NCBI RefSeq assembly: GCF_021028975.2
Contig: NC_059436.1
Coordinates: 1,984,001-2,048,000 of the forward strand
DNA: 64,000 bases
Direction: 5' to 3'
From: Sphaerodactylus townsendi
Taxonomy: Eukaryota
Part shown: positions 1-49,749 of the stretch, piece after piece
Layout: every line of letters begins with the position of its first letter
Position numbering within the stretch: position 1 is the stretch's first letter
The notes under the pieces: model-generated
What the model was told of the DNA's origin: nothing
The model's input: only the letters and a program-made list of their open reading frames with translations
The model's database searches: none
Program-made: the position numbers and the translations under genes

Positions 1-2129
1 CCATTGAAGTCCTACTCTTCAAACCTTGCTGTCCTCAGGCTTCACCCCTCAACTCAGAGCTGGCAACCCTACAAGAGGCAGATGGGTAACATGATTATTT
101 GCCTTTCTGGTAAGTGGCTGAGAATAAAGCCACGGAGTAAAATGCCCTACTTGCTCCATCATTTGTTTCCCTTAAAAGTGAGTCTGTGTGGAAATTGTTT
201 TACTGGCCTTTGATTACAATTGATAGTTTTAGTGTATTAATCTTTGCATGGAGGGCAGGCTAGGCATGGCTTGTAATCAACAAGGTGCTAAATTATGTTG
301 TCTGTGTTACAGTCTTTGGCTTTTTACATTTCTAACTTATAATTGTTCTCATCCCTACAGTCTGATAGGAAAGGAAGTATTCATGGTTGGGACACAGAAA
401 CTCTAAATGGGCAAATATCTGAGTACAAAAGAGAAGCAGCTAAATTCATGAGGTTACAACAGAAGGGTCTCCAGGATGCCAAATAATGTTGCTCTAGGGG
501 TATAGTTGGCTGCTTTGGAGGGTGGATTTTATGCCATTCTACCCCATTGAGGTCTCTCTGCCAACCCCATCCTCCCGAGGCGCCATCCCCAACTTTGTGG
601 CATTTCCCAACCCTGAGAGTTGGTATCCCTCCTCCAGAGTTATATTTGACCCACAAGGTGCAAGTAGCTCACCCCTGATTTTGTGCCACAATCCTCCCAG
701 TGTAAAATGGTGGCTGTACCTCTTGTTTCCCCATTGCTATAGGTTTGCAGCAGACAAACCTCAGACCTGCACTTCAAGCTCCAAATCTTCATTCACAGAA
801 TGGTGTTTTATTCAGTAGGCCTTGACTCAGCATCTTTACCCATTTCAGAGCTTATTGCATTAGAAAACGCCATAGGCCCCTGCCCCCCAGTCTGGAAATC
901 TCTGATGCCGCAGACACTTCCTTCAAGAACTTCTCTGACTTTCAGAGGCTGAAAGAAGAAAGTTTGGATTTGGAAGCGAAATCACCACTGTGACTGTGAT
1001 ATAGCCCAGAGCTATTTAGGGAATCAGATTAACACAAAGTCTTTATGAGCCATCAGCTGTATAACTGTGGGGGAGTGAATCAGCAGACCGGTAGCCTGGA
1101 GGCCAGCTCTTAATTGAAAATGGAGAGAGAGAATGGATGTAGGGTTATATCCAGCAGTCTGGAAAATACTTTGCATGTTTTGGATCAGGACTGGCTGGAA
1201 AATGGAAGTTTCGTCCTGTAAAAATAAGTCAGCTCAGGGTCTATTCACACTGTGAAGATGATGATCTTATGAAAAACTGTCAATGTCTGCGGCATTCTGC
1301 AAAAAGACAGGTCCCTGTTGCAGGGGGCTTACCCTATACACTTTGACAATAGGGGCTGGAAGAGGGAGCATCTGGCATATGGTAGCCTAGGAAAGTCATC
1401 TCCCAGGGGCTTTACCGTATGGCCACCATGAGCCAGACTCCATTTCAGACATACCATTGCAAATGCTTACAGCTGCAATGCCTCCAGATGGTTGTGGGAA
1501 TAGGCCAAGTCAAACATGAGTTAAATACAGCTTTTAAAAAAAGATCTCGAGATGGCGCTTGCCTTGAATTTTCTCCTTGTTTTTATTGTTAATTGTGTCA
1601 TTAATTCTATGATGCATTTTATTGCATTTTGTACACAGTTTTGTACGCAGTAATGTTTTTGCTATTGGCCACCTTGGGAATTTTGCCTGAGAAGCTGATT
1701 GTAAGTCTGAGGAATAACTAAATAAATTAAATGTTGTCATTCAAAACTGGAACAAAAAAGCTGAAGAACTGGAAAGGCGGAACCCTGTCATTTTATAGAA
1801 TAATAAGAAGGGAGCGAACGCAGTATAGTGGTTAGATTAGAACTGGGGAGACTTTGACATCAGTGGTGCACTTGAATAATTTTAGCCTCCTGCCTTAATT
1901 GTCTCAGGACCCACCTATTAATTAGCTATAGTAGTAGATGCTGGAATCCTAAGAACACTTCCTTGTAGGTCAGGCCCATTGAATAAAATGAAGCTTGCTC
2001 CTGAGAAAACCTACTCATGACAGCTTTTCTAGGCTGTAAATCTGTACACACTTCTGTGGGACAATCTCCAACTGAACATATGAAAAATTAAGAGTAACCA
2101 TAGCTAGGAAAGCACGTTGACTTAGTCTG

Positions 2130-4175
2130 GAACTTTGTGGAGCAGCAGAAGCTTCAAGAGGAAAATGGGCTTTGGATGTTACACAACATCGAGCCTGGAT
2201 CAGGGTTCAAGCATTGCAGGGACAACCAACAACTTGGCGGACTCTCTGAGCCACGATCTGACTGTTCAACCAGACTGGTCCCTGGATCAATTTTATCTAG
2301 ACCCTGTCTTTGCTGCTTGGGGGATCCCAACTATCAATTTCTTTGCTTACCACAACTTGAACTGCCAGACCTATTGCTCCAGAGCAGGGCTGGGCGAGGG
2401 GTTCAGGGGCGATCCCTTTCAGTTCAAATGGAACAGAATGTTTCTATATATTCCCCTCCCCACCCCGTTCCCCCTGCTGCACAAGACGGCAGCCAAGATC
2501 AGGGAGAATTGTACATCCTGCATTCTCATACCACCATATTGGAGCAGGCAGCCATAGTTCCCACGGCTGCACAAGATGACCAAGGGGAGCATGTTTCCCT
2601 GGCAACGGAGGATCTGCTTCTGAATGGAAGAGTTCACCATCACTATATTCCTTCCCTCCACTTGGCCGCTTGGTTGATCATTCACTGAGCAGTTGGCCTG
2701 ACAATGTGAAAGAAGTCCTGCTCTCCACTAGAAAACTCTCCACTCGCAATCATATGAAGCAGAGTGGAGACATTTTTGTGGCTGGCGGATGAGAGAAATG
2801 TTGATCCAGTTACCTGTTCTCTTCCATTGGTTTTTGAATACCTGTTGTCATTAAAAGAGTATAATTTGACCAATTTTGTCTATAAAAGTGCATTTGGCTC
2901 GTATTTTGACCTTTCATGTGGGTTTTAAACTCTGCTTTGTTGTTCTCTCACCCCTTCTGCACTAGGTTTTTGAAGGGCCTTGGTAATCTTTTCCCATAGG
3001 TTAAAGAACCTTTACCACAATGGAGTCTTCGGTTCCTTTATGGTACTAACTAGTCTTATGGGAAAGCCCTTTGAGCCTAGGGCCACATGTGATATGACTC
3101 TTCACTCCCATAAGGTGGCGTTTTTTATCACCATCATCTCTGCAAGGAGGATTAGTGACCTTAGGGTGTTGATTGCTGAGCTTCTTTTTCTTAAGTTTCC
3201 TCCGAATAACGCTAGTTATGGCCTAGTTTATACTACCTCCACAAGGTGGTTTCTTCTTTCCATCATCCATAGATGTAACATATGATTTTAAATTTAATAA
3301 TTTAAGAATAGTGTATAACCACTGTCTCATACCTAATGCCAATAAAGGTTATTGCATCTTTTCCATTCATCCCAGAACATAGTCATCCCTACTTTTTGTC
3401 CCAACCCCTCTAACAATTCTGAATGGGCTTTCTTCCACTTCCTAGATCGAAGGATGGATCTTTCTTTTTATACAGAATGCATGAGACCATTTAGAAGGGA
3501 TATCTTCTTGCTTATTGCTTTTCGGGGTCTCACAAGGGGATGGGTATCTCCACTCAAACATTTGAAAGACTGGGTTGGCCATACATCCAAAAGGCTTATG
3601 CCTTGGCAAAGGTGGACTGTCCTATGATGGTCAGCACTCAACAAGAGTTCAAGCATCGGCTGCCTTTCTAGTGAGAATCAGGATTGAAGATATCTGCAGC
3701 AACTTGGTCTTCATCCTTGATGTTTGTTCATCATTGTGCTGTGGATGTGGACTCGGTCAGAGAATCCAATTGTGTGGGGAAAGCTGCATTACAATCTATT
3801 TTCAAGTGAATGTTAATAAAGTTTCCACCTCACTCTGTCCATCCTTGGCCATTGCGATTTTCTATTGCATAACATTTGCCTCCACCTCCTGCTGGTTTAG
3901 CTTGCTACTCTCCCATGTGGGTCTGATAGAATAGGAAGAGCAACGCTTGCATTTACCTGTAACTGTTGTTCGTCGAGTGGTCTTCTGTGCAGTCACTCAT
4001 ACCCTCCCGCTGGCCCCGCTGTGCTCTGGGCAGTCAGCCACTGTGCTGTTTGCCTTTCAGTGTGTTTGTTGCATGTATACTAGAAGAGAACTGAGGAGAG
4101 TGCTCCCTCCTGTCCTCAGCCTCTGATTAGCAGAGGAGATATTCCTGTTCCAATGCAGGGAGGAGGGAGAGGAAG
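2130..4175 (+). mobile_element. Degenerate DIRS1-like tyrosine-recombinase retrotransposon, 3' part (RNase H end, MT-like domain, YR, ICR/terminal region)
   Basis: Translated motifs: (H)IAGTTNNLADSLS (RNase H C-terminus); WGIP.INFFA..NLNCQTYCS...GDPFQFKW...LY...FPLL.K...KI....CILIPPYWSRQP (DIRS MT-like domain); KPFEP...KVAFFITIISARRISDL, SFH/LSQNIVIPTFCPNP, HSTR and ATWSS (YR). The 3' segment gcatttacctgtaactgttgttcgtcgagtggtcttctgtgcagtc resembles reptile DIRS ICRs. Stops and frameshifts are present. Confidence 0.88.
3265..3356 (+). mobile_element. ~97-bp LINE 3'-end insertion interrupting the DIRS recombinase (mirror 46223-46319)
   Basis: Ends in atgccaataaaggttattg. The right arm shows an 11-bp TSD gatggaaagaa at 46212-46222 and 46320-46330. 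Removing it rejoins KVASSFH and LSQNIVIPTFCP. Confidence 0.75.
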
Positions 4176-4526
4176 TAAAATTTGGATTTGGATTTATTCA
4201 AGAATAAAAATTTGGATTTATTCAGGGAATAAAAATTATCTGTAGGGCGCCAAATAAGACAAATAACATATATTCGGATATACCCTAATATTTGGGCATA
4301 GCTGAAAAAATCTGGGTCCATCTGAATTTTTTTGGGCATTTTTTGGGCTTTTTGCATTTTGGCCTGTAGGGGGCATTTTTAAAACTAACGGCACTAAAAT
4401 TTTAGGTTATCATCCAGAGACTATCTTCCTGATAATAATGCCCAAGTTTGGTGAAGTTTGGTTCAGGGGGGCAAAGTTATGGTCCCTTAAAGTGGGTGCC
4501 CCATCCTTCATTGTTTCCAATGGGAG
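4176..4526. mobile_element. Probable DNA-transposon internal/subterminal fragment (mirror ~45076-45414)
   Basis: Contains ccaagtttggtgaagtttggttcaggggggcaaagttatgg...cattgtttccaatggg, a motif I recall as recurrent in lizard DNA transposons, plus short aaaatttggattt repeats. No TIR/TSD resolved. Confidence 0.4.
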
Positions 4527-4823
4527 AGAAGAAGAGGAGGAGGAGTTTGGATGAGTATCCCCCCCCTCTCCTGTGAGGAGACTCTGGGGCTTACAATCTC
4601 CTTGCTCTTCCCCCCTCACAACAAACACTCTGTGAGGTGGGTGGGACTGAGAGAGCTCCGAGAAGCTGTGACTAGCCCAAGGTCACCCAGCTGCATGTGT
4701 AGGAGTACAGGCTAATCTGAATTCCCCAGATAAGCCTCCACAGCTCAAGTGGCAGAGCAGGGAATCAAACCAGATTCCTCTAGATTAGAATGCACCTGCT
4801 CTTAACCAGTTCGCCAATGCTGC
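4527..4823 (-). mobile_element. Squam3-type tRNA/CORE SINE (mirror ~44770-45075, +)
   Basis: tRNA-like head (ggttaagagcagg...ggtttgattccc), CORE gggtgaccttgggctagtcac, tail ...tataaatccaaactc(ctc/ttc)n. Confidence 0.85.
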
Positions 4824-5041
4824 CTCTAATCCACATGGTATCTTGATCACTTCAGCTGCTAATTTCTTACCATGATGGTTAGGGAAAGAAAAACTTTCAT
4901 CAGAAACAGAAAAAATCATTAGACCAAGGTGTAGACGATCTCAAAAGCTCCCTCTCAGTCTTGTCTTCATAGAAGTTCAAATTTTTAAAGCCTTCGTTTA
5001 ACCATTAGACATAAACTCTACCAAGAACCATTGTGGGAATC

Positions 5042-8000
5042 AAATACAAATACAAATACAAAACCTTTAATGGCATATAAAGAGTGGTAAAATACAGATT
5101 ATGTTAAAACCAATTGACTAAAATTTACACAAAGGTTTCACTCTTGATCCAAGTGCCTTTGTTAAAAACCTGGCAACTGATTCAGTAGTGTGGGGATGAT
5201 GGTCACTAAGCAGGTGTGAAACTATTTCCTTGTCTGATCTCACTGAAAATTTCTTCAAGATGGCCTCGAGAAAAAGCAACCGATAGACTCCCAAAACTAT
5301 GCAATGATGGAGAGCTTGTGCAGTTGTTTCGGGTAGGTCTGCTTTTACCAGGAACAAGTCCTGTTCTCCTGTGGGATGCCAAGGATATCTGCCTCTTGTT
5401 TGGGCAGTCGGTAACACATTTAGCCGAAAGCAAGCATAAAATAATTCATGATGTGGATTGATTAAATTACTCATATATTTAGCCATAAAACCCGGCAATG
5501 GTGGTGAAATGCCATAAAATGTGGGAGAACAAGTTCTTATATTCCAGCTGTGAGAAGTCAGTTCCTTCAATGTCAAGAGTACGCTGTTTCAAAACTCCGG
5601 AAGCCTGTTCTTCATCCATCAGTAGGAGTTGGTCAAAAAAGATAGCACCTATGTTGTTTATTTGCTTGATAATTTTTGTGTTCCATGTGGAGTCGAAGTG
5701 CTCGCTTAACAGAAAATATGTGAGACTGCCCGGGAGTGGCTCTATAACAAGGCGTAAGCCAGTATTTAAACAACAAAGAGAGCCAAACCCGGGAAAAAAT
5801 TGTCTTGGCTCCGGTTTCTAAACAAAGAACTTGATACGTGACTGAGTTTGGGAAGACCTAATAAACGCACGTAAGAAAACAAAGATTGAACACTCTCTAC
5901 TTTCTCAGCGGTTTTTGCTCCCTCAGATTGGAGCTCCGTGAAAGTAATTGTGGCAGTAGTTTTAACTGAAAATCCCCATTGCGGCAGGAAAAAATTGACT
6001 GCCTCTGGTGTGAAAAAATCTGGATATTTCAACAATTTAATTTTACTACTTGTATTGAGAGTCTGGTGGATATGAGAGGTCCAGGTTAAGGAATGATGGA
6101 AGGTGATTCCTAAATATCTGTATGAATGGACCTGTTCAATCAATGTACCGCTTATTTTCCACGTGCTGAGTTTTTTTTGAATTCGAAAAGACCAGCACTT
6201 TGGAATTGTTATAATTAATCGACAGGCAATTGTTTGTGCAGTACGCCGCAAAGGCTTGAAGTGAAGTCTTTGCAGGCCCACCTTGGACCGAGACAGTAAC
6301 ACAGTGTCGCCTTGCATAGAGAAGTGTACATGTGGGTCTTTGTCCCAAAATGGGTGCTGCGACTTTCAGTCTGAGATAAAATGAGGAGCAAAGGTCAAGT
6401 AAATAAAGATTGAACAGGAGAGGAGCAAGTGAATACAACCCTGCTTGACTCCCTTGTTAGAAACTATAGGTGAAGTTAGGCGTTCAAGACGATCACAACG
6501 AACTTGACAGGTGTAGTTGAGGAATACAACTGGCTTAATAAGAAACAGTAATCTCTGGTCTATTCCCAACACAGTCAAATTTCCCACAGCTGATTCCTGG
6601 GGATAGAGTCGAATGCGCATTTCAAATCTAGGAAAGCCGCGAAGGAGTTTCCCACCCTTTGGGTGGCAATATTTCTCCGCCAAATGGCTTAAAACCAGAC
6701 AATGGTCAAGGGTGGATTTACCTGTGGCATATCCTATCTGTTCCGGGCCTCATAATTGAAGAGGACCAGGCAGTGAGATCGTGACATAAGGTACCTATGA
6801 AAAGCTTACTTCGTAGCCACTGAAAGCAAGCTTATGGGGCGATAGTTAGATGGATTTGATGGATCAGCCTTTTTTATGTAGGAGGTACAATGATAGCTTC
6901 CAGTCCAGTGCTTAGGGATACAGCCACTGTTGTTAATTTTGGTAAACAGGGTAGCCAAAATAGGGGCCCAGAACTCCGGGAATCTTCTAAAGAGGTCAGG
7001 GGGCAGGCCATCTGTGGGCTCCAGTTTTCCCTTGTTTTAGGTCATCAGATATAAGGGTGATCACCTCTGTCAGAGCTGATGGAGGCCATTCAGGTAAATG
7101 CTTTGCTGTCTAGCCAGTTGCACATGGAGTATCCAAAAGTTCTGGATTGCAGAAAATGGTTGTAAAATGTGTCCCCTATGCTTCCACTGAAATCTGAGAA
7201 CTGATGGCTGCATAGGGCTCACGGGCACTTGAATTAATTATACCAAAAGCTTTTTTGCTGTCTCTGGAGTTAAAGGCTTGATGGAGATTGTTCCAAATCT
7301 TTGTAAGATGTAATTTCTTTTTGGTCTTTAAAAGATCATCATGATAGGACTTTCTAGCTGCGCAGGTAATTCCTTTGATAGCTAACAATTTCTTTTCCTC
7401 TAAGTTCACAATGATGAAATAACTTCCTCGGAGTTGGGACTTGCTGCTCATACACATTCTCACAAACTAGGTGGAGGGATTCACTGAATGTGAAAATTTA
7501 TGATGTGATTGATTACTGGAACCCTGGAATGGTTAGATAGGAAACCAGTTCATATTGGTAGATTTGACAAACCTCCTCTGCTGTCCTTTGCAGCAGTTAA
7601 CTGTTGAAGAAAGTTAGCCATCCGATCATCAGAAAGGAATGAGCGACGCTGGTTCAGTTTCTTTATGCGCCCAGCTGGCCGGACATGACAGGAAGACCCT
7701 TCTTCCTGAGCTGATTTGCTTTGAAGGGATTTGTTTATTAGTCTAAGAAGAAGGGGAGAGTGCTCACTTTCCGCTCTGAGCTGCTAATTGCAAAGTGAGC
7801 AATGTGGTTTGTTAGTTCAGGCGATATTATTACATAATCAATCACACTCACCCCACGTGCAGATCTAAACGTGAACTTTCCAGGGTAATCAAAGGGAGGA
7901 AGACCATTTAAAATTACCCTATTTGCTGATAGGCAAAGGTCTATCAAATGCGGGGAGCTGCTTGATTTATGGTGCGGACGCTGGACAACCTGCATTGGAG

Positions 8001-8383
8001 ATATGGTGTCAGATTGAATTTCATCCAAATTTAAGTTTACATCTTTGACTTAGGGCTGAATCATTTTCTCCCATCCTGGTGTTTAGATCACTCAGCAATG
8101 ACGACGGGTGTCAGAGGATGTTCTTGCTCGGCCGGAAGTATGTATTGATGGAATCGTGACCAGTTCTCTACAAGAATGCTTGCCTCTTCTGCGGGTGGCA
8201 AATAAACATTTACTAGTAAAAATTTCAGATTGAGCTGCGAAATCAATAGGGCTTGGGCCAAAGGCGGGCACGAGTTTAGTGCTACTGCATTGATTTCTGC
8301 GTTGAGAGAGACTAGGATACAAGTACCTGCTCTCATCCTCCCTCTGGCTTTTAACCTGAATGCTGGAATTGAGAAGGAGGCAT
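5042..8383 (-). mobile_element. 5'-truncated non-LTR retrotransposon (APE endonuclease + RT + C-terminal Cys/His motif; RTE/RTEX-like), frameshifted as assembled
   Basis: Minus-strand motifs: LLVNVYLPP and ILNG...FTF....SVIDYVIIS (APE); NKGVKQGC, LAPLLFNLYL, LLYA/DTVLLS, INYNNSKVLVF and HSYRYLGITF (RT); FRLNVLPTAQTRGRY...ETTAQALHHC (C-terminus). The 3' end is atgccattaaaggtttt+(gtattt)n. 13-bp TSD cattgtgggaatc at 5029-5041 and 8384-8396. Clade assignment is from motif recall only. Confidence 0.92.
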
Positions 8384-10984
8384 CATTGTGGGAATCCTGA
8401 CTGCCGCTTCTTCATTGCCTTCCCCCTCATGATTTATTCCTGGCAAGTGGATAAAACCCCTTGTGTGACCATACACACACACTTTGATGCTCCCACACTC
8501 CCACCCCTCTAACACACACCATTTGAAATATTGGCTAATGAGCTATTCATCTATAATATACTCTCTAAGAGGAGCCAGCCGCCTCAACCATATCAACTCG
8601 CAAATCATCTTGGGTGACACTTTATAACAGAGCTATTCTCATCTGCCTTTTGGCAGTGGCAAGCTGTGGGCCGTGTGGGAAGAAAGAACGCAAAAAAAAG
8701 CCACACATCTTATTTTCCGTCATAGCGTAAACAGGGTTAAAGTGGGAGAGAAACCCACAAGTCTGCCACAAATTGCCTCTCTGTGGTCCCAGCTCTCTTT
8801 GCCCTACCAGCAAGAGTCAGCATCAAAAAGGATTACAAGGTGGAGCAGAGTAGCCTAGCTGTCTGCTTACTCTCTTAAGTAAAAGGATCAATCAGTCTCT
8901 GTGGTGAGCCGCCCCAGACCACCATTTCCAAGCCCAGTTCCCTTTGCTAGGCAGCCCCTGATTTCCCAGATTGAAACCAGGTATTTCAGGGAGCTTGAGA
9001 AACTCAGCATCAAACACTTTCTTGTGCTGACTGACCTCCCGCTTCCACGCCTGTAAACAATTATTTTTTGTCAAATTATCTTCTCTGATTTAATAAAAAT
9101 CCATGGGCACTTTTCTTAACTGGTTTTCTATGTAGGGTAAAAATCCATTTACTAGAGGCTTCATGGGTAGAAAGGGCAGCTGAAGCGTTTCATGCCATAA
9201 GATCCCATCAAGCTTCTGTTGAAAAAAAGGACAGGGCATTTCCCCCCCTCCAGGCAGTGGGCAACCCTCACTTCTGTGGTTCAAGGGGACAGGCAGTTGG
9301 CAAACCTACTTCTGTCCAACCAAATTCTGAAGCAGAGGTGATGAACATTCACTGGAATGGGGATGTATGAGCCATGGAGGGTCAGGTGTACCCCCAAATC
9401 TCCACAGATCTCCAGTCCCAACCCAGAGCTGGCAACCATAGGAAGTGTTCTGCATGCAAGGTGTTTTTCCTTGTGGAAGAGAGCATTCAAAGATCTCCCC
9501 ACCCCCACTAAAAGTCAAGCATTCTTTCCATTTTAAGTTTTCACATAGGAGAGTCTCCAGAAGCAAGATTTCTATGTTGTGAAACAGCATCAATTGTAGG
9601 GGACACTGCAAATAAAACTGAAGATACCTTTTAAATTGATCGCGTCTATGCTCTCCCATTCTGAAATTAAAAGTAAAGGAAACCTAATGATATTCCCACT
9701 TATATCACACAACTATAGGTAACCAGATGTTACTTTTCCAGCAATCCCCAGATTCCTGTTTTTTTTCCATACAGTATAAAGCCTGCTTTAAGTACTTACC
9801 CCCCCCTCCACCCAATTTAAGGCACCATCAATGACTCGACACTTTTTTTTATACCTTCTTCCCATCATGTGAGGAATTGGTGCTAGAGAGCAAATTGCAC
9901 AATTTCCTGTCAGATTCTTTCCCCACATCTAGATCTTCATTTCCTAAGGGAAATATTTTAAGATTTTTTAATGTAAGGTGACAGAATCAGCTTTTACACC
10001 TGTGACACACATTCTAATTTTTTCTTAACACGCTTATCATTCCTCTACTCCAAAGGGGCTTTTGCATTTTTTAAAGAATTACATATTAAATGTAATCTTG
10101 AATGTTCTGTTTGAAGGCAAGCATTCCAACAATACAACAAAGAGGTTTCTAGACAACATCAAAGAACACTTGTTCCTTCCTCAGACATGCACATATAAGT
10201 CAGTGTATTAATACAGCAGATATCCCAGATTCTTACGTAACTCATTCTAGGTTGTCTTGGTGCTTTTACATGTTCATTTCCTCTCACAGAATTGTATTTT
10301 TTAACTCATGATTTCCTCCAAGGAATTCAGAGTACCATACATGGTTCTTTATTTTATCCTCCTAACAACCCTGTGAGGTGGAGTTTAGGCTGAGAGAGTG
10401 ACTGGTCTAAGGTCACCCAATCAGCTCTTCAAAGTCATGGATTTGAGCCCAGATTTTAACAGTCAGGCAGCCCAATCCTATTGGGGGGGGGGGGGGGGGG
10501 GGAGGGAGGGAGGAAAGGGACTTACACCAGAGGGAGGGCAATTGGAAGGTGAGCAGGGTGCTGTGGACCTTGGGACACCTGACCTGGAAGATGGCCTGGC
10601 CTCCTAAAGCAGTGTGGTTGTCCAGGAGGACACTGGCACAGTGGGAAGCATCTCTTGGGGAAGGAGACTGACTTGGTCAGCTTCCACCCGGGCTTTGGAG
10701 CTCGGAATGCCCTAGCGTTGCCTCTTGCAGCTACAATTCACCAGAAAGGATGGCATAAAGTCCATTTTTTTGGGCTATGGAGTATTTCCTGTCCCCCAAG
10801 GCAGCATTGGCAACCCTACCAACTCCTGGAAAATTCAAGACTTCTGCCTAGTTTGCCAAAGGACTGAGGTAAAATATTTATTGGAAGAGGGGTATGTCAG
10901 AAGCAAGAAGACCACCAAAGTTACTGTCACACAATATATAATTAATCTAGGGAATTTGATGGACCAGAATTAGGTGAGAATTGT

Positions 10985-11225
10985 TGGCTGCTGGGTCTGG
11001 CACATTAAAAGTACATCAGCCATATTCAGTTGCAGAGACAACGGTAGTGTACCAGTTTCTAGCAGGGGTGGCCGGTGAGGGCAGCATAGAGGGGAAAGGC
11101 TAGTTGCTTTGTTGCCCTGCTTGTAGGGGCGCTCCCCAGACCCGACATCTGGTTGTCCATTGTAGGAAACAAGATGCTGGGCTAAATGGATCTTGAGCCT
11201 GGTCCAGCAGGCACCTCTTTGTTTT
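10985..11225 (+). mobile_element. Old CR1 LINE 3' fragment (mirror ~41885-42110)
   Basis: ...aagatgctgggctaaatggatcttgagcctggtccagcaggc... resembles the CR1 3' terminal region. The tail is degraded. Confidence 0.5.
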
Positions 11226-12485: not shown

Positions 12486-12780
12486 AAAAAGACTTGGCTT
12501 TTATAACCCACCTTTCTCTAGCACAGTAAAGAGTCTCAAAGCAGCTTACAATGGACTTCCCCTCCCCCACAACAGATGTCTTTGTGAGGTAGAGGTGGAG
12601 GCTAAGAGTTCTGAAGGGACTGTGGCAAGCCCAAGATCACCCACATGGCTTTATGGGTAGGAGTGAGGAATGAATTCTCCAGATTAGAGTCTGCTGCTCA
12701 TGTGGAGAAATGGGGAATTAAAACCGGTTATCCAGACATATAGAGCCCGCTGCTCATGTGGAAAAGTGGGGAATCAAAGG
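12486..12780 (-). mobile_element. Squam3-type SINE with an internally duplicated head (mirror ~40435-40715)
   Basis: CORE and tail motifs present. The segment gctgctcatgtgga(g/a)aa..ggggaat occurs twice (~12692 and ~12749). Confidence 0.75.
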
Positions 12781-37866: not shown

Positions 37867-38006
37867 GGCTCATTCCGCACATGCAGAATAATGCACTTTC
37901 AAACTGCTTTCAGTGCTCTTTGAAGCTGTGTGGAATGGCAAAATCCACTTGCAAACAGTTGTGAAAGAGTTTGAAAACGCATTATTTTGCGTGTGCGGAA
38001 GGGGCC
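37867..38006. mobile_element. 140-bp PIF/Harbinger-like MITE
   Basis: TIR ggctcattccgcac / gtgcggaaggggcc, 3-bp TSD atg (37864-37866, 38007-38009). An independent copy lies at 55866-56006. Confidence 0.75.
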
Positions 38007-41000
38007 ATGGAGTCTTCTAACTGATGGTAATTGCCGATGTGGCTCTCTATGAACTGCAGACTGAATGCCACTGAACTAGCATATCTTTTTTAAAACTTCC
38101 AACAGATCAACGTCTGCATCTGAACATAAGAACATAAGAACTAGCCTGCTGGATCAGACCAGAGTCCATCTAGTCCAGCACTCTGCTACTCGCAGTGGCC
38201 CACCAGGTGCCTTTGGGAGCTCACGTGCAGGAGGTGAAAGCAATGGCCTTCTGCTGCTACTGCTGCTGCTCCTGAGCACCTGGTCTGCTAAGGTATTTGC
38301 AATCTGAGATCAAGGAGGATCAAGATTGGTAGCCATAGGGGACGGGCGGGAGCAGGACTCCATGGCATTAAACTCTGTTGAGCTCCTTTCCCTTCCACTC
38401 TCCTCCACTCCCAGAAACTCCCAGAATCTCCCAACCCAGTGCTAGCAACCTATGAAAGACCTTAACAAGGACAGCATTCAAGTGATCATGGATAGGGAGC
38501 CTTTAGCCATTACACTAGGCTTTTTTCCCTCCATTTCACAAACTAGCAGCTAATTAATGTATCCATCTTCTCTTGTGAGCAATGACAGGCTCATTTTCAG
38601 CAGTGGAAAGGGTATTGTGCTTAGTGGCTGTCCAGCTTATTACAAAAATCATATCTTTCCATTGTGCAGAATTCATGCTACTCTGTCATTAACACCCAGC
38701 CACAAAAGCTCTGGCCCGGCTTTGATTCAAAGTCAACTTGTGCTTGTAAGTGAAGGCTGAGAGGATCAAAAGCAACAGGACTAATTGATTAAAAATCAAT
38801 ATTTAAGAGGGGAAAAGCTCCAGTGCGATGTGTGTAGGAGGAAAAATTTGCCTTCTTCACACTAATATAAATTATAATTAAAGGTTTGATGAATAAAACA
38901 TGATGAGGCTAATTTTAAAACCCTTTGTGGTATCACCCCAGCTGAAGAATTTTCCACTGTCTTTGTGCAATAAAGTAAGGATGTTGGATTTGTCGTTTTT
39001 TAAGCCTATAAATAACCCCTCCATGCACGACTGAGAAACAACAAGTCTCTTTTATTATTTAGGCACACTCATAAGTCTGTAAAAAGTCAACACAGCCGAC
39101 TGAGAGAGTGTACAAACATTTGGGGCTGTCCAAAATTAAGCAAAGCACATGGACTCCAAATGCTTGGCCAAAGGGGGGGGGAGTGGGGGCCAATGCTGAT
39201 GGGTGCCAGGTGGTAAAACCCCATTGAGACCAATGAGGACTGCAGACATGTAATCGGGAACAGATTTTCAAATCTGGCAGAGGAAAATGTCGCTTAAAAT
39301 AAGAAGGCTTTTCCAGTGGTGCAACTCGCCATTCCAGCGTCATGTTTCTCATTAACCCCCCCCCCCCCGTCCAATTATCCAAATCCTGTCATTAATAAAA
39401 TTTACCATGCCTTTCCCCCATACAGCAAGTGGATTGAGCCCCCTGTTTATAATTAATTTTATTTTATAGAGCTTGGTTTCAAACACTAATTATTGCCAGG
39501 ATTCCATAACATACTGTTGGCTAACAAACACACTTACGTCTTGGCTAACTTTGCAGCATGAACATTTGTATACTGTGTATTAATTAGAGACTCTAACGCA
39601 AGAATAAGGGCTGATATGAGAGAAAATGGCAGGTGCAGCCAGCCATTACCACACAACGGTCTGTGGAATACAACAAGAGCTGAGTACAACCTCCCCACCC
39701 CACCTTCCATGCTAGCCAATATACATAAGTGGAAATGTAGGGAAGGCTTATGTAGGTGGGCTTATGATATAATCAACTTCATTTTTTTCTTTCATGAAGA
39801 AGAAGAGTTTGGATTTATATCCTCCTTTCTCTCCTGTAAGGAGACTCAAAGGGGCTTACAATCTCCTTTCCTTCTCCCCCCACACAACAAACACCTTGTG
39901 AGGTGGGGAGGGCTCCGAAGAACTGCGACTAGCCCAAGGTCACCCAGATGGCATGTGCTGGAGTGCACAAGCTAATCTGGTTCTCCAGATAAGACTCCAC
40001 AGGTCAAGTGGCAGAGCGGGGAATCAAATTCGGTTCTCCAGATCAGAGTGCACCTGTTCTTAACCACTACACCATGCTGGCTCTCAACTGTATGAGATCG
40101 GATACAGCGGGAGGGAGGTGACAAGTCTGTACCCAACTCAGAAAAAGAATGCTTTGGCCCTGAATGAGCCCCAACAAGAGCTGCCTTTCTCATTTTTCTT
40201 CATTTTTCCACCCCTGCAGGGATTGAGAACTTCTGAAATGTGTAGCTTTCTCCTCCAGTCTGTTGGGTATATATGTATATAATCCAATCCATTCCAATCC
40301 AAAAACCTTTATTAGGCATAAATATATATGTATATTAGCAGAGAAGAGCAGAAGAGACAGATTCGCAATTGCTTTTTATATATGAGTTTGCTAACTATAA
40401 AGGGAGGATTACACGAAGATAAAATAAGAAATCCTTTGATTCCCCACTTTTCCACATGAGCAGCGGGCTCTATATCTGGATAACCGGGTTTAATTCCCCA
40501 TTTCTCCACATGAGCAGCAGACTCTAATCTGGAGAATTCATTCCTCACTCCTACCCATAAAGCCATGGGTGATCTTGGGCTTGCCACAGTCCTCTCAGAA
40601 CTCTTAGCCCCACCTACCTCACAAAGCATCTGTTGTGGGGGAGGGGAAGTCCATTGTAAGCTGCTTTGAGACTCTTTACTGTAGAGAAAAGGTGGGTTAT
40701 AAAAGCCAAGTCTTTTTCACATGTGTCTATTTTCCCTACCAGCGAGGCCTGCCCCCCACCAAAAAGTTAAGCCTTCTGATTTTATTTGTTCTGTACAAGA
40801 CCTGATTTGCTTGTCATATGTGGCATCTAAAGTTGCAATGCTAACAATGCTTACTAGGAGTGAATCCCATTGAAATGTGGTGCATTTATTCCTTCATACA
40901 TCTGGTTAGGAATGCCTAGCGTTAGAGCCATGTTATGCATGCAACAAAGCCTAGGTGGAGTTGGCATCTCTGTTCCACTTGTAACATCCATGTTTTTAAA

Positions 41001-44000
41001 AAGGTGACAAACAAAATGAGCATATCCCCCCCTTCCCCGATTTTCTGTAAACAGGTAGTAGCACGAGATACGGGAACAAATCTCAAGCGCTGGAGAGTTG
41101 AGAGAATTGGTGTTTCCACAGTTCCTCAAAAATGATCATCTGTACTCATTCTGGAATGCCCACACTCATGTGCCTATTTAAAGCAGCCAGATGATTGCAA
41201 AAATTCCTGGGGAGAGAAAAGAAGTATAAATATCTCCAAAAGCACTATCAATACTGACCACATTTCCAAACAGCATTCAGCTCTATTTTTTAAGTGTCAA
41301 ATGTTTCCGTAGAGTTTTGGAAACTCTTGGGTAAAATGAAATTAGAAGGAGATGGGTTTATGGTTGCATGCATGGGCTGGATTCAATTGAGACCCCACCC
41401 AGTTTTCTCAACTCAGGAAACTGCCAGCAGTTATTCTACCCAAGACAGTTGCCTCTTCCATTGACTTAGCAGTTAAAGGTCACAAATCTGGGCTGATCAA
41501 GCCCAACTCTGTTTTCTTCATGTGAGGTCACAGGGACATAAGTATCACAGCGAATGTCCCAGCAAGTTTGGACTAGAATGCATGGGCATAGTCAATAAAT
41601 AAGCAAAACATGGTTACATAGAAAATCCCTGCACACAGAAAGCGAGATAACCTGAAAGACATATCCCGAATGCATTCCTGATGGCTTCCATGTGAATTTG
41701 ATTTGTGTGTGTGGATGAGCACTACGATCTACTACTTGTAGTGATACTGGGGACCACATCAGATGAAATGTTGGGAGAGCCATTATTAGATCTCTTGCTG
41801 CTTTGTTTCCATAAACAGCAGACATGGGGGGAACTGATCTGGAACAGGATGAAGACAAAGGGAAGGAGCTCCAGGCACCTCCTAAGAAAACAAGAGGTGC
41901 CTGCTGGACCAGGCTCAAGATCCATTTAGCCCAGCATCTTGTTTCCTACAATGGACAACCAGATCGGTCTGGGAGTCTACAAGCAGGGCAACAAAAGCAA
42001 TAGCCTTTCCCCTCTATGTGCCCCCACCGCCACCCCTGCTAGAAACTGGTACACTACCGTTGTCTCTGTGAATATGGCTGATGTACTTTTAATGCCAGAC
42101 CCAGCAGCCAACACCACAATTTGGTCCATCAAATTCCCTAGATTAATTATATATTGTGTGACAGTAACTTTGGTGGTCTTCTTGCTTGACATACCCCCTC
42201 TTCCAATAAATATTTTACCAGTCCTTTGCAAACTAGGCAGAAGTCTTGAATTTTCCAGGAGTTGGTAGGGTTGCCAATTGCCTTGGGGGGACAGGAAATA
42301 CTCCATAGCCCAAAATGGACTTATGCCATCCTTTCTGGTGGTGTAGCTGCAAGGGCAACGCTAGGGCATTCCGAGCTCCAAAGCCCGGTGGAAGCTGACC
42401 AAGTCGTCTCCTTCCCCAAGAATGCTTCCCACTGTGCCAGTGTCCTCCTGGACAACCACACTGCTTTAGGGGCCAGGCCATCTTCCAGGTCAGGTGTCCC
42501 AAGGTCCACAGCACCTGCTCACCTTCCAATTTGCCCTCCCCTCTGGTGTAAGTCCCTTTCCCTCCCTCCCTCCCCCCCCCCAATAGGATTGGGCTGCCTG
42601 ACTGTTAAAATCTGGGCTCAAATCCATGACTTTGAAACTGATTGGGTGACCTTAGACCAGTCACTCTCTCAGCCTAACCCACCTCACAGGGTTGTTAGGA
42701 GGATAAAATAAAGAACCATGTATGGTACTCTGAATTCCTTGGAGGAAATGTGAGTTAAAATACAATTGACGGAAATGAACACAAGCACCAAGACAACCAG
42801 AATGAGTTACAAGAATCTGGGATATCTGCTGTATTAATACACTGACTTATATGTGCATGTCTGAGAAGGAACAAGTGTTTTGATGTTGTCTAGAAACCTC
42901 TTTGTTTATTTTGGAATGCCTTCAAACAGAACATTCAAGATTACATTTAATATGTAATTCTTTAAAAAATGCAAAGCCCTTTGGAGTAGAGATATGTGTT
43001 AAGAAAAAATTAGAATGTGTGTCACAGGTGTAAAGCTGATTCTGTCACCTACATTAAAAATCTTAAAATATTTCCCTAGGAAATAGTCTAGATGTGGGGA
43101 AAGAATCTGACAGGGAAATTGTGCAATTTGCTCTCTAGCACCACCTCATGATGGGAAGGTATAAAAAGTGTCGAGTCATTGATGGTGCCAAATTGGGTGG
43201 AGTGGGGGTACTTAAACAGGCTTTATACTGTATGGAAAAACAGGAATCGGGGGGGATTGCTTAAAGTAACATCTGTTCTATAGTTGTGTGATATAATGGG
43301 ATATCATTAGGTTTCCTTTACTTTTTAATTTCAGAATGGGAGAGCATAGACGCATCGATTTAAAAGGTATCTTCAGTTTTATTTGCAGTGTCCTACAATT
43401 GATGCTGTTTCACAACATAGAAATCTTGCTTCTGAGCTCCTATGTGAAAACTTAAAATGGAAGAATGCTTGACTTTAGTGGGGGTGGGGAGATCTTTGAA
43501 TGCTCTCTTCCACAAGGAAAAAACACCTTGCATGCAGAACACTTCCTATGGTTGCCAGCTCTGGGTTGGGACTGGAGATCTGTGGAGATTTGGGGGTACA
43601 CCTGACCCTCCATGGCTCATACATCCCCATTCCAGTGAATGTTCATCACCTCTGCTTCAGAATTTGGTTGGACAGAAGTAGGTTTGCCAACTGCCTGTCC
43701 CTTGAACCACAGAAGTAGGGTTGCCCACTGCCTGGAGGGGGGGAAATGCCCTGTCCTTTCAACAGAAGCTTGATGGGATCTTATGGCATGAAACGCTTCA
43801 GCTGCCCTTTCTACCCATGAAGCCTCTAGTAAATGGATTTTACCCTACATAGAAAACCAGTTAAGAAAATGCCCATGGATTTTATTAAATCAGAGAAGAT
43901 AATTTGACAAAAATAATTGTTTACAGCGTGGGGCGGGGAGGTCAGTCAGCACAAGAAAGTGTTTGATGCTGAGTTTCGCTCCCTGAAATACCTGGTTTCA

Positions 44001-45414
44001 ATCTGGGGAATCAGCAGCTGCCTACCAAAGGGAACTTGGCTTGGAAATGGTGGCCTGGGGCGGCTCACCACAGAGACTGATTGATCCTTTTACTTAAGAG
44101 AGGCAGACAGCTAGGCTACTCTGCTCCACCTTGTAATCCCTTGATGCTGACTCTTGCTGGTAGGGCAAAGAAGCTGGGACCACAGAGGCAATTTGTGGCA
44201 GACTTGTGGGTTCTCTCCCACTTAACCCTGTTTGCTAACGAAATAAGATGTGGCTTTTTGCGTTCTTTCTTCCCACACGGCCCACAGCTTGCCACTGCCA
44301 AAAGGCAGATGAGAATAGCTCTGTTATAAAGTGTCACCCAAGATGATTTGCGAGTTGATATGGTTGAGGCGGCTGGCTCCTCTTAGAGAGTATATTATAG
44401 ATGAATAGCTCATTAGCCAATATTTCAAATGGTGTGTGTTAGAGGGGTGGGAGTGTGGGAGCATCAAAGTGTGTGTGTATGGTCACACAAGGGGTTTTAT
44501 CCACTTGCCAGGAATAAATCATGAGGGGGAAGGCAATGAAGAAGCGGCAGTCAGGATTCCCACAATGGTTCTTGGTAGAGTTTATGTCTAATGGTTAAAC
44601 GAAGGCTTTAAAAATTTGAACTTCTATGAAGACAAGACTGAGAGGGAGCTTTTGAGATCGTCTACACCTTGGTCTAATGATTTTTTCTGTTTCTGATGAA
44701 AGTTTTTCTTTCCCTAACCATCATGGTAAGAAATTAGCAGCTGAAGTGATCAAGATACCATGTGGATTAGAGGCAGCATTGGCGAACTGGTTAAGAGCAG
44801 GTGCATTCTAATCTAGAGGAATCTGGTTTGATTCCCTGCTCTGCCACTTGAGCTGTGGAGGCTTATCTGGGGAATTCAGATTAGCCTGTGCACTCCTACA
44901 CATGCAGCTGGGTGACCTTGGGCTAGTCACAGCTTCTCGGAGCTCTCTCAGTCCCACCCACCTCACAGAGTGTTTGTTGTGAGGGGGGAAGAGCAAGGAG
45001 ATTGTAAGCCCCTTTGAGTCTCCTCACAGGAGAGAAAGGGGGGATATAAATCCAAACTCCTCCTCCTCTTCTTCTCTCCCATTGGAAACAATGAAGGATG
45101 GGGCACCCACTTTAAGGGACCATAACTTTGCCCCCCTGAACCAAACTTCACCAAACTTGGGCGGTATTATCAGAATAGTCTCTGGATGATAACCTAAAAT
45201 TTTAGTGCCGTTAGTTTTAAAAATGCCCCCTGCAGGCCAAAATGCAAAAAAACCCAAAAAATGCCCAAAAAAATTCAGATGGACCCAGATTTTTCAGCTA
45301 TGCCCAAATATTCGGGTATATCCGAATATGTTATTTGTCTTGTTTGGCATACAGATAATTTTATTCCTGAATAAATCCAAATTTTTATTCTTGAATAAAT
45401 CCAAATCCAAATTT

Positions 45415-47440
45415 TACTTCCTCTCCCTCCTCCCTGCATTAGGTGGGGAATATCTCCTGCCTAATCAGAGGCGAGGACAGGAGGGAGCACTCTCCTCAGT
45501 TCTCTTCTAGTAGCCACATGCAACAAACACACTGAAAGGCAAACAGCACAGTGGCGGCACAGAGCACAGCGGGGCCAGCAGGAGGGTATGAGTGACTGCA
45601 CAGAAGACCACTCTACGAACAACAGTTACAGGTAAATGCAACGTTGCTCTTCCTATTCTGTCAGACCCACATGGGAGAGTAGCAAGCTAAACCAGCAGGA
45701 GGTGGAGGCAAATGTTATGCAATAGAAAATCGCAATGCCCAAGGATGGACAGGTAAGTGGAAACTTTATTAACATTCACTTGAAAATAGATTGTAATACC
45801 GCTTTCCCCACAGTGGATTCTCTGACCGAGTCCACATCCACAGCACAATGATGAACAAACATCAAGGATGAAGACCAAGTTGCTGCAGATATCTTCAATC
45901 CTGATTCTCGCTAGAAAGGCAGCCGATGCTTGAACTCTTGTTGAGTGCTGACCATCATAGGACAGTCCACCTTTGCCAAGGCATAAGCCTTTTGGATGGC
46001 CTTGGTAACCCAGTGCACAAATGTTTGAGTGGAGATACCCATCCCCTTGTGAGACCCCGAAAAGCAATAAACAAGAAGATATCCCTTCTAAATGGTCTCA
46101 TACATTCTGTATAAAAAAGAAGATCCATCCTTCGATCTAGGAAATGGAAAGCCCATTCAGAATTGTTAGAGGGGTTGGGACAAAAAGTAGGGATGACTAT
46201 GTTCTGGGACAGATGGAAAGAATCACACACAATAACCTTTATTGGCATTAGGTATGAGACAGTGGTTATACACTATTCTTAAATTATTAAATTTAAAATC
46301 ATATGTTACATCTATGGATGATGGAAAGAAGAAGCCACCTTGTGGAGGTAGTATAAGCTAGGCCGCAACACAACGTTATTCGGAGGAAACTTAAGAAAAA
46401 GAAGCTCAGCAATCAACACCCTAAGGTCACTAATCCTCCTTGCAGAGATGATGGTGATAAAAAACGCCACCTTATGGGAGTGAAGAGTCATATCACATGT
46501 GGCCCTAGGCTCAAAGGGCTTTCCCATAAGACTAGTTAGTACCAGGGACAGACTCCATTGTGGTAAAGGTTCTTTAACCTATGGGAAAAGATTACCAAGG
46601 CCCTTCAAAAACCTAGTGCAGAAGGGGTGAGAGAACAACAAAGCAGAGTTTAAAACCCACATGAAAGGTCAAAATACGAGCCAAATGCACTTTTATAGAC
46701 AAAATTGGTCAAATTATACTCTTTTAATGACAACAGGTATTCAAAAACCAATGGAAGAGAACAGGTAACTGGATCAACATTTCTCTCATCCGCCAGCCAC
46801 AAAAATGTCTCCACTCTGCTTCATATGATTGCGAGTGGAGAGTTTTCTAGTGGAGAGCAGGACTTCTTTCACATTGTCAGGCCAACTGCTCAGTGAATGA
46901 TCAACCAAGCGGAGGGAAGGAATATAGTGATGGTGAACTCTTCCATTCAGAAGCAGATCCTCCGTTGCCAGGGAAACATGCTCCCCTTGGTCATCTTGTG
47001 CAGCCGTGGGAACTATGGCTGCCTGCTCCAATATGGTGGTATGAGAATGCAGGATGTACAATTCTCCCTGATCTTGGCTGCCGTCTTGTGCAGCAGGGGG
47101 AACGGGGTGGGGAGGGGAATATATAGAAACATTCTGTTCCATTTGAACTGAAAGGGATCGCCCCTGAACCCCTCGCCCAGCCCTGCTCTGGAGCAATAGG
47201 TCTGGCAGTTCAAGTTGTGGAGCGAAGCAAAGAAATTGATGATTGGGATCCCCCAAGCAGCAAAGACAGGGTCTAGATAAAATTGATCCAGGGACCAGTC
47301 TGGTTGAACAGTCAGATCGTGGCTCAGAGAGTCCGCCAAGTTGTTGGTTGTCCCTGCAATGTGAACCACAGTCAGAAAGGCTCGATGTTGTGTGGCCCAC
47401 ATCCAAAGCCCATTTTCCTCTTGAATCTTCTGCTGCTCAC
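45415..47440 (-). mobile_element. Mirror copy of the DIRS1-like element
   Basis: ORFs 47013-47402, 46312-46527 and 45955-46248 carry the same RNase H/MT/YR motifs. Confidence 0.88.
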
Positions 47441-49552
47441 AAAGTTCAGACTAAGTCAGCATTATCCTTTCCTAGCTATGGTTACTCTTAATTTTTCATA
47501 TGTTCAGTTGGAGATTGTCCCACAGAAGTGTGTACAGATTTACAGCCTAGAAAAGCTGTCATGAGTAGGTTTTCTCAGGAGCAAGCTTCATTTTATTCAA
47601 TGGGCCTGACCTACAAGGAAGTGTTCTTAGGATTCCAGCATCTACTACTATAGCTAATTAATAGGTGGGTCCTGAGACAATTAAGGCAGGAGGCTAAAAT
47701 TATTCAAGTGCACCACTGATGTCAAAGTCTCCCCAGTTCTAATCTAACTAATTATACTGCTGCTCAGCTTCCCTCTATTATTATCTCTATAAAATGACAG
47801 GGTTCCCGCTTCTTTCCAGTTCTTCAGCTTTTTTGTTCCAGTTTTGAATGACAACCTTTAATTTATTTAGTTATTCCTCAGACTTACAATCAGCTTCTCA
47901 GGCAAAATTCCCAAGGTGGCCAATAGCAAAAACATTACTGCGTACAAAACTGTGTACAAAATGCAATAAAATGCATCATAGAATTAATGACACAATTAAC
48001 AATAAAAACAAGGAGAAAATTCAAGGCAAGCGCCATCTCGAGATCTTTTTTTAAAAGCTGTATTTAACCTGCTGCTCTGACTTGGCCTATTCCCACAACC
48101 ATCTGGAGGCATTGCAGCTGTAAGCATTTGTAATGGTATGTCTGGAATGGAGTCTGGTTTCCATGGTGGCCATGCACGGTAAAGCCCCCTGGGAGACACT
48201 CTCCTAGGCTGCTCATATGCCAGATGCTCCCTCTCTCCAGCCCCTATTGTCAAAGTGTATAGGGTGTTTCCCCCTGCAACAGGGACCTGTCTTTTTGCAG
48301 AATGTCGCAGACATTGACAGTTTTTCATAAGATCATCATCTTCACAGTGTGAATAGACCCTGAGCTGACTTCTATTTTTACAGGACGCAAACTTCCATTT
48401 TCCAGCCAGTCCTGGATCCAAAACATGCAAAGTATTTTCCAGACTGCTGGAGGCAACCCTACATCCATTCTCTCTCTCCATTTTCAATTAAGAGCTGGCC
48501 TCCAGGCTACCGGGTCTGCTGATCTACACTCCCCACAAAGCTATACATACAGTTGATGGCTCATAAAGACTTTGTGTTAATCTGATTCCCTAAACAGCTC
48601 TGGGCTATATCACAGTCACAGTGGTGATTTCTGTCTAAATCCAAACTTTCTTTCTTTCAGCCTCTGGAAAGTCAGAGAAGTTCTTGAAGGAAGGTTCATG
48701 CGGCATCAGAGATTTCCAGACTGGGGGGCAGGGGCCTATGGCGTTTTCTAATGCAATAAGCTCTGAAATGGGTAAAGATGCTGAGTCAAGGCCTACTGAA
48801 TAAAACACCATTCTCCAGAATGAAGATTTGGAGCTTGAAGTGTGGTGGCCTGAGGTTTGTCTGCTGCAAACCTATAGCAATGGGGAAAACAAGAGGTACA
48901 GCCACCATTTTACACTGGGAGGACGCAGGCACAAAATCAGGGGTGAGCTACTTGCAACTCAGGGTCAAATATAACTCTGGAGGAGGGATACCAACTCTGT
49001 GGCTGGGAAATGCCACAAAGTTGGGGATGGCGCCTCGGGAGGGATGGGGTTGGCAGAGAGACCTCAATGGGGTAGGAATGGCATAAAATCCACCCCTCCA
49101 AAGCAGCCAACCATACCCCTAGAGCAACATTATTTGGCATCCTGGAGACCCTTCTTGTTGTAACCTCATGAATTTAGTAGCTGCTTCTCTTTTGTACTCA
49201 GATATTTGCCCATTTAGAGTTTCTGTGTCCCAACCATGAATACTTCCTTTCCTATCAGACTGTGGTGGGATGAGAACAATTATAAGTTAGAAATGTAAAA
49301 AGCCAAAGACTGTAACACAGACAATATAATTTAGCACCTTTGTTGATTACAAGCCATGCCTAGCCTGCCCTCCATGCAAAGAGACACACTAAAACTATCA
49401 ATTGTAATCAAAGGCCAGTAAAACAATTTCCACACAGACTCACTTTTAAGGGAAACAAATGATGGAGCAAGTAGGGAGATTTTACTCTGTGGCTTTATTC
49501 TCAGCCACTTACCAGGAAAGGCAAATAATCATGTTACTCCATCTGCCTCTTG

Positions 49553-49749
49553 TAGGGTTGCTAGCTCTGAGTTGAGGGGTGAAGCTCGAGGACAGCAAGG
49601 TTTGAAGAGTAGGACTTCAATGGGGTGTGATGCCAGTTTCCACCTTGCCAAAGCAGCCATTTGATCTAGAGGAACTGATCTCTGTCAGCTGGAGATCAGT
49701 TTTAATCCCAGGAGATTCTGTAGCCACTACCTGGAGGTTGGCAAACCTA
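49553..49749. mobile_element. Old non-autonomous DNA transposon with TAGGGTTGCC-type TIRs (its mirror is cut by the window start, 1-71)
   Basis: tagggttgc...ggaggttggcaaaccta. Related fragments at ~490-680, ~9255-9440, ~14840-14950 and 63388-63858. Confidence 0.65.

What the first reader, a model, noticed from the sequence alone, without database searches (positions are those of the whole stretch)
1..49623. At least 23-kb-arm inverted duplication centred on an assembly gap: a false haplotype duplication or a real palindrome
Seen: 1-26774 and 26875-49623 are reverse complements, and every SINE, MITE, DIRS fragment and the CpG island is mirrored. Position 1 falls inside a transposon whose complete mirror continues past 49623, so the arms probably extend further. 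Established: large palindromes exist (e.g. sex-chromosome amplicons), but uncollapsed haplotigs scaffolded head-to-head give the same picture. Inference: the artefact is more likely, given the gap at the axis and the error-like indels. A simple fold-back of one molecule is excluded because only one arm carries the TSD-flanked LINE.
Basis: partly seen in the sequence, partly recalled or inferred. Interest (0 to 1): 0.72.

Follow-up and report, generated by a model that had tools for sequence, protein, structure and literature searches.

The report
False inverted duplication at assembly gap
This 50-kb mirror image is very likely an assembly error: the right half matches other sequencing runs almost perfectly and continues into different DNA there, while the left half is an error-rich copy, likely of the second chromosome's version of the same stretch, placed backwards across a gap.

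Summary
The mirror is in the assembly: 1-26774 and 26875-49623 are reverse complements at 93-95% identity around 91 N plus 9 unmirrored bases (100 in all). It is very likely not in the animal. The right arm differs from three public runs by 0.07-0.12 per 100 bases, the left arm by 6.2-7.9. In two runs one contig covers the right arm's tip, matches the 9 bases and runs about 1 kb past the axis without folding back. The left arm has nanopore-like errors (strand-biased transitions; indel direction flips near 2.35 kb). It also holds real allelic information: the other runs' allele at 10 of 22 sites, and a LINE with a 13-bp target-site duplication. Best reading: a false duplication of the second allele, built from very few long reads. 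Its exclusion of fold-back is too strong, because a fold-back read could still have seeded the shared end. The source reads were not identified, so half depth is untested. The scan noted similar gap-side false duplications in other genomes, none at this locus. Ordinary; low interest.

The parts
1..26774 (+). Left arm: error-rich copy of the locus, likely the second allele, built from very few long reads
   Evidence: 6.2-7.9 differences per 100 bases against runs X1-X3; carries the other runs' allele at 10 of 22 sites; strand-biased transitions
1..2350 (+). Deletion-rich distal part of the left arm, resembling one raw nanopore read (inferred)
   Evidence: 47 right-only against 11 left-only indels; purine against pyrimidine transitions 25:10.
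5030..8397 (-). 3,355-bp non-LTR retrotransposon (LINE) plus its 13-bp target-site duplication, present only in the left arm; 3' tail of (TGTATT)n; reading frame in many pieces
   Evidence: weak Pfam Exo_endo_phos_2 hit (E 0.009, below the curated cut-off) in 1 of 7 pieces; about 50-70 times single-copy depth in X5; contigs of X2 and X3 cross the empty site
8384..26774 (+). Insertion-rich proximal part of the left arm
   Evidence: 469 left-only against 55 right-only indels; longer than the matching public contigs, e.g. 4,764 against 4,583 bases
26775..26865 (.). Assembly gap, 91 N
26866..26874 (+). Nine unmirrored bases (GAATGGCAC): the start of the true single-copy flank; 91 N + 9 = 100
   Evidence: matched without a listed difference by the 5,640-nt contig of X2 and the 5,484-nt contig of X3
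26875..49623 (+). Right arm: the accurate copy of the locus, with the empty LINE site (target site at 44555-44567)
   Evidence: 0.07-0.12 differences per 100 bases against X1-X3 over the listed contigs within 26866-46253
33262..33740 (.).
   Evidence: repeat-level depth
49553..49749 (.). ~197-bp element with terminal inverted repeats; its mirror is cut off by position 1

Best explanation
The mirror is very likely a false duplication: the right arm matches three public runs at about 99.9% and is followed there by non-mirror DNA, while the left arm is an error-rich copy, likely of the second, LINE-bearing allele, probably built from one to a few nanopore reads and joined head-to-head across what was likely a 100-N scaffolding gap. 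Shown: the one-sided error load, the continuation past the axis in two runs, the shared alleles, the LINE and its target-site duplication. Inferred: (a) the left arm escaped collapse because of the 3.4-kb LINE plus about 6% error; (b) short reads polished the better copy and reached the left arm mainly where it has private anchors (the two LINE junctions and an 8-bp indel); (c) 9 of 100 N were later replaced from reads of the true flank; (d) both contigs ending at the same base needs one cause, either a fold-back read or a fork in the assembly graph, and I cannot decide between them.
For: (1) Sums over the 8 listed contig pieces per run (added up). Right arm: 15 other letters + 2 gap letters in 14,601 (X2), 8 + 2 in 14,086 (X3), 2 + 0 in 2,275 (X1). 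Left arm: 252 + 659 in 14,734, 251 + 650 in 14,352, 36 + 149 in 2,340. (2) A 5,640-nt X2 contig (depth 28.1) fits 26866-31470 and has 1,035 letters left beyond the tip; a 5,484-nt X3 contig (depth 56.4) has 979 left. Neither shows a listed difference in the 9 unmirrored bases (chance of 9 of 9: 4e-6). No mirrored ~1-kb piece is listed although pieces of 456-656 nt are. Their depths resemble the other listed arm contigs (X2 25-33; X3 56-77). (3) The left arm carries the other runs' allele at 10 of 22 single-copy sites (P 5e-12 at 2% error), so it holds real allelic information. (4) 32% of the 31-mers of 18000-26774 occur in the right arm, and the best indexed runs hold 0.28-0.29 of the sampled words: left-specific words are largely missing from those runs. 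(5) Transitions are strand-biased and the bias switches: purine to pyrimidine 25:10 (1-2350), 4:28 (2351-5028), 96:46 (13001-22000). A-G excess on the read strand is a nanopore trait (PMC8486125, passages). (6) The ~310-320 bases beside the LINE hold 0 and 1 differences against a rate of 4.8 per 100 (P 2e-7 for none in 308). (7) X5 raw depth averages 0.96 in 17 of 30 bins under 3x for 1,934 Mb read, i.e. about 2.0 Gb per copy, which fits one copy in a lizard genome (size range recalled). (8) A gap between the copies, erroneous k-mers and haplotype k-mers are the marks listed by Ko et al. (PMC9516828).
Against: The source reads were not identified, so half or very low depth on the left arm and absence of axis-spanning molecules are untested. 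The letters of the ~1-kb continuation are not shown beyond the first 9. X2 and X3 belong to one study; X1 and X5 gave no listed piece at the axis. No depth was measured outside the arms, so there is no single-copy control beside them. The LINE-bearing allele was not seen in any listed contig. Error-poor islands around the shared-allele sites are not significant (11.7 against 14.5 events per 300 bases, P 0.067). 10 of 22 sites match the right arm and 2 are unreadable. The strand bias is absent in 2 of 6 segments (10:7 and 23:19), and the 2,350 boundary was chosen after seeing the indels. If the assembly used low-coverage long reads only to fill gaps, a real private copy would also be poorly corrected.
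Confidence: 0.93

Rival explanations
1. A sub-case of the artefact: a fold-back long read from the LINE-bearing chromosome turned at 26774/26875, diverted the contig and supplied the left arm; the contig was later cut at the turn and rejoined with 100 N.
For: The two arms end within 9 bases of each other and 91+9=100, which independent contig tips would rarely do. Both read directions appear in the left arm. Fold-backs are about 0.55-0.6% of nanopore genomic reads in PMC12870357 (passages). Ko et al. report false palindromic sequence of raw-read length in assemblies (PMC9516828, section 10).
Against: The arms are not one molecule (LINE; 10 allelic sites). No adapter or linker is visible at the axis. 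Inverted duplicates are reported to give missed base calls (PMC7229812, search listing only), whereas the error-rich arm is insertion-rich near the axis. Two independent reads or a graph fork would give the same picture.
Confidence: 0.4
2. A real inverted duplication private to the assembled animal or to one sex chromosome, whose second arm was only badly corrected.
For: The left arm has a real private feature (LINE with target-site duplication). The source reads and the sex of X1-X5 are unknown. Other windows of this genome are reported to hold raw-read-quality sequence that may be real (e1-9956481, unchecked).
Against: Two runs continue past the axis without a branch. The 9 bases in the window's own gap edge are the ordinary flank. 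The left arm's alleles fall inside the pool seen in X2 (10 of 17 X2 sites). Nearly all arm differences are errors.
Confidence: 0.05
3. A species-wide palindrome or amplicon whose arms have diverged by 5-7% through evolution.
For: Only the mirror geometry.
Against: Differences are one-sided; no listed contig in X1-X3 has the left-arm version. Indels outnumber substitutions 615 to 457, and only 12 of 65 isolated transitions are in CpG context. Transitions are strand-asymmetric. X5 depth would imply a genome of about 4 Gb.
Confidence: 0.01

Closest known systems
Heterotype and homotype false duplications (Ko et al. 2022, PMC9516828; passages and section 10 read)
   Same: Two copies side by side on one scaffold, separated by a gap; haplotype-specific variants; erroneous k-mers; length of a raw read (their range 1-50 kb).
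   Different: Here both types are mixed in one copy: a real second allele plus about 6% read error. The word 'invert' does not occur in that paper's main text, though it mentions false palindromic PacBio sequence of 7-17 kb. Their depth and read-pair criteria could not be run on the source reads.
Fold-back artefacts of long reads (Heinz, Meyerson and Li 2026, PMC12870357; passages read)
   Same: Strand switch within 200 bases of the same position (here 9).
   Different: They define single reads; here the two arms are different alleles of different quality, separated by N.
Sex-chromosome palindromes and amplicons (recalled, no paper read)
   Same: Large inverted arms.
   Different: Those have real junction and spacer sequence, arms kept nearly identical, and doubled depth. 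Here the junction is a gap, differences are one-sided errors, and other runs show an ordinary flank.

Membership tests
False duplication (Ko et al. 2022) | Assembly gap between the duplicated pair on one scaffold | tested here: met
   91 N at 26775-26865
False duplication (Ko et al. 2022) | Half depth (heterotype) or very low depth (homotype) in reads of the assembled individual | not testable with these tools
   Source reads not identified. Indirect only: best runs hold 0.28-0.29 of left-arm words, close to the 0.32 shared with the right arm
False duplication (Ko et al. 2022) | Discordant or spanning read pairs at the junction | tested here: inconclusive
   No pair data for the source. In X2 and X3, contigs leave the axis into other sequence for 1,035 and 979 letters
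False duplication, heterotype | Haplotype-specific (1-copy) variants in the duplicate | tested here: met
   Left arm carries the other runs' allele at 10 of 22 sites; LINE with target-site duplication. Tested against other runs, not by k-mer multiplicity in the source
False duplication, homotype | Erroneous k-mers in one copy | tested here: met
   6.2-7.9 against 0.07-0.12 differences per 100 bases
Fold-back artefact (Heinz et al. 2026) | [quoted passage not shown] | tested here: met
   Arms end 9 bases apart
Fold-back artefact (Heinz et al. 2026) | Both halves are one molecule, turning near the middle of one read | tested here: not met
   Not met for the arms as assembled: LINE in one arm, 10 allelic differences. 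A fold-back read as the seed is not testable without the raw reads
Real palindrome or amplicon (features recalled) | Junction between the arms present in molecules of the species | tested here: not met
   X2 and X3 contigs run past the axis without folding back; the source animal itself is untested
Real palindrome or amplicon (features recalled) | Doubled depth over the arms | tested here: inconclusive
Real palindrome or amplicon (features recalled) | Both arms exist as real sequence with symmetric, evolutionary differences | tested here: not met
   One-sided, indel-rich, strand-biased differences

The most novel reading that the evidence does not exclude
The assembled animal carries a real, young inverted duplication of at least 23 kb, private or on one sex chromosome, whose second arm derives from a LINE-bearing haplotype and was recovered only by a few uncorrected long reads; the other runs lack it.
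Probability: 0.05. Interest if true: 0.45.

Novelty: not a real feature. Interest (0 to 1): 0.07.

Why it matters
Mainly as quality control. Bases 1-26865 should be treated as a likely false duplicate, and about 1 kb or more of true flank is missing at the axis, so the scaffold join there is suspect. Frameshifts, repeat ages and copy counts read from the left arm are unreliable. The one biological by-product is a likely polymorphic LINE insertion with a clean target site, usable as a marker. The case also gives a sequence-only recipe for spotting such artefacts: one-sided indels, strand-biased transitions, and error-free islands beside private insertions.

Tried and rejected
First guess that the right arm had deletion errors near the axis: rejected, because public contigs match the right arm's length. 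Idea that polished islands centre on the shared-allele sites: not significant (P 0.067). Simulation: with error rates from the middle of the ranges in PMC8486125, a keep-everything consensus of two reads gave 2.9 insertions, 0.2-0.3 deletions and 1.9-2.2 substitutions per 100, close to the observed 2.55, 0.30 and 1.92. It did not reproduce the multi-base insertions (220 of the 502 small left-only events), and the one-read case gave 1.5 insertions per 100 against 0.35 seen in 1-2000. It is suggestive only. Pfam: 0 of 9 long frames passed a cut-off, 1 of 7 LINE pieces gave a sub-threshold endonuclease hit, and 0 of 3 DIRS-like pieces gave a hit. The DIRS label and the LINE reverse-transcriptase motifs are therefore recalled, and the LINE clade is unassigned. 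The frame test (3 of 3 DIRS-like frames and 1 other frame open in the right arm are split in the left) is biased because the frames were chosen in the right arm. An X1 contig that stops near the empty LINE site (44558, 23 letters left over) is not evidence of the LINE allele: it stops 9 bases short of the target-site end, and other X1 contigs also have loose ends. X1's word share of 0.13 reflects low depth (contig depths 4-12). Earlier-findings look-ups near this place and among relatives returned nothing; one word search returned nothing. Paper searches listed nothing specific to head-to-head haplotigs, and one search found no paper; I make no claim that such cases are unpublished. Supplements of the papers were not read; Ko et al. 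Fig. S11 shows their palindromic cases and may bear on the fold-back sub-case.

Full report
Observation. Self-BLAST confirms the mirror: 26875-44567 against 26774-8384 at 93.4%, and 44555-49623 against 5041-1 at 95.0%. The centre is 91 N plus 9 unmirrored bases, exactly 100. A realignment gives 22,119 matches, 457 substitutions, 503 left-only and 112 right-only indel events, with one large indel, a 3,355-bp LINE flanked by a 13-bp target-site duplication. Indels outnumber substitutions, and only 12 of 65 isolated transitions are in CpG context, which is unlike ordinary vertebrate divergence (established knowledge). The repeats look like those of a lizard (recalled); earlier scan notes call the genome a gecko (unchecked).

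Which arm is right. Each answer lists 8 contig pieces per contig run, the longest of several hundred thousand records. Summed, the right arm differs from X2, X3 and X1 by 0.12, 0.07 and 0.09 per 100 bases, the left arm by 6.18, 6.28 and 7.91. The left arm is longer than the contigs (14,734 against 14,149 for X2); the right arm has the same length. So the left arm carries the errors, mostly insertions near the axis. The two calls used different likeness thresholds, but several of the same contigs appear in both (equal length and depth), so the contrast is not a threshold effect. The right arm from 46254 to 49623 is not covered by a listed piece. Four frames open there are split in the left arm, a test biased by how I chose the frames. 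Thirty-two percent of the 31-mers of 18000-26774 occur in the right arm, and the best runs hold 0.28-0.29 of the sampled words, so words specific to the left arm are largely absent from those runs.

What lies beyond the axis. An X2 contig of 5,640 letters fits the left arm up to 26774 with letters 14-4596 and the right arm down to 26866 with letters 1-4605. The extra nine are the unmirrored bases, and none of its four listed differences falls there. It has 1,035 letters left. An X3 contig of 5,484 letters behaves the same way, with 979 left. No mirrored piece of that size is listed although shorter pieces are, and a de Bruijn contig cannot hold the same k-mer twice (established knowledge). In two samples of one study, therefore, the locus runs on into other DNA. 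The window's own gap edge begins that same flank. X5 raw depth is 0.96 in the 17 of 30 bins under 3x (13 repeat bins dropped), about 2.0 Gb per copy. This fits a single copy if the genome is near 2 Gb (recalled). I laid no stretch outside the arms as a control.

The left arm is a second allele, not only noise. One search showed 40 of 189 difference rows; I dropped 18 in high-copy repeats and kept 22. At 10 of 22 the left arm carries the other runs' letter, at 10 the right arm's, and 2 are unreadable; chance at 2% error is 5e-12. All ten are among the 17 sites seen in X2. The LINE has a clean target-site duplication, which read errors would not make. Contigs of X2 and X3 cross the empty site, so the insertion is likely polymorphic; I saw no listed contig with the filled site. 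The stretches beside the LINE hold 0 and 1 differences in about 320 and 310 bases, and those beside an 8-bp indel at 2657 hold 0 and 1. This is what read pairs anchored in private sequence would polish (inference). The same effect around the SNP sites was not significant (P 0.067).

Read type. Taking the right arm as truth, purine to pyrimidine transitions run 25:10 in 1-2350, 4:28 in 2351-5028, 10:7, 46:26, 50:20 and 23:19 in four segments of 8384-26774. Nanopore reads show an A-G excess on the read strand, and deletions are their commonest error (PMC8486125, passages). Indel direction flips from 47 deletions against 11 insertions in 1-2350 to 55 against 469 beyond the LINE (P 4e-30). This suggests one read distally and a consensus of about two reads, in both directions, proximally. 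A simple simulation reproduces the proximal rates but not the multi-base insertions or the low distal insertion rate. The segment boundary was chosen after seeing the indels.

Mechanism. Shown: a good copy and a bad copy of one locus, of different alleles, around a gap. Inferred: the bad copy escaped collapse because of the LINE and its errors, was starved of polishing reads, and was scaffolded beside its homologue; nine N were later replaced from the true flank. The shared end point needs a single cause. A fold-back read (0.55-0.6% of nanopore genomic reads in PMC12870357, passages) or a graph fork would do.

Comparison and verdict. The case meets the gap, haplotype-variant and erroneous-k-mer marks of false duplications in Ko et al. 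(PMC9516828; passages and section 10 read, supplements not read). The depth and read-pair marks need the source reads. It fails the junction and symmetric-divergence tests for a real palindrome. Earlier scan notes report raw-read-quality patches elsewhere in this genome and gap-side false duplications in other genomes; they are unchecked and not counted as support. A private real duplication in the assembled animal remains at about 5%. Verdict: not a real feature; interest 0.07.

Noticed in passing
window 5030-8397: LINE with endonuclease and reverse-transcriptase motifs in one long, broken frame, a (TGTATT)n tail and a 13-bp target-site duplication; absent at this site in X2 and X3; family at about 50-70 times single-copy depth in X5. 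Likely a young polymorphic insertion. Clade not assigned; its frameshifts may be read errors.
   Followed up: partly
window 52437-52646: Perfect 105-bp tandem duplication (2.0 copies, 100%) starting in the 3' end of a SINE-like repeat. It could be a recent duplication or a contig-overlap artefact.
   Followed up: no
window 53751-54250: CpG-rich stretch outside the arms (GC 0.51, CpG o/e 0.75) with CCAAT-like and GC-box-like words; possibly a promoter or an LTR-like repeat.
   Followed up: no
window 33262-33740: CpG-rich element with 16-bp terminal inverted repeats (14 of 16 match) and TAT on both sides; multi-copy by depth. It resembles a Harbinger-type MITE (label recalled, and a lead from e1-10132652).
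   Followed up: partly
window 31446-31657 and 36320-36467: Palindromic high-copy elements (89% and 96% self-complementary) in the right arm; their left-arm copies match at only 80% and 85%, worse than the arm average.
   Followed up: no
window 45955-47450 (mirror 2100-3650): DIRS-like fragment with RNase H-like and recombinase-like frames (labels recalled; no Pfam hit); frames are open for longer in the right arm.
   Followed up: partly
window 59875-59944: (TCT)14 followed by (CTG)10 at the end of a SINE-like repeat.
   Followed up: no
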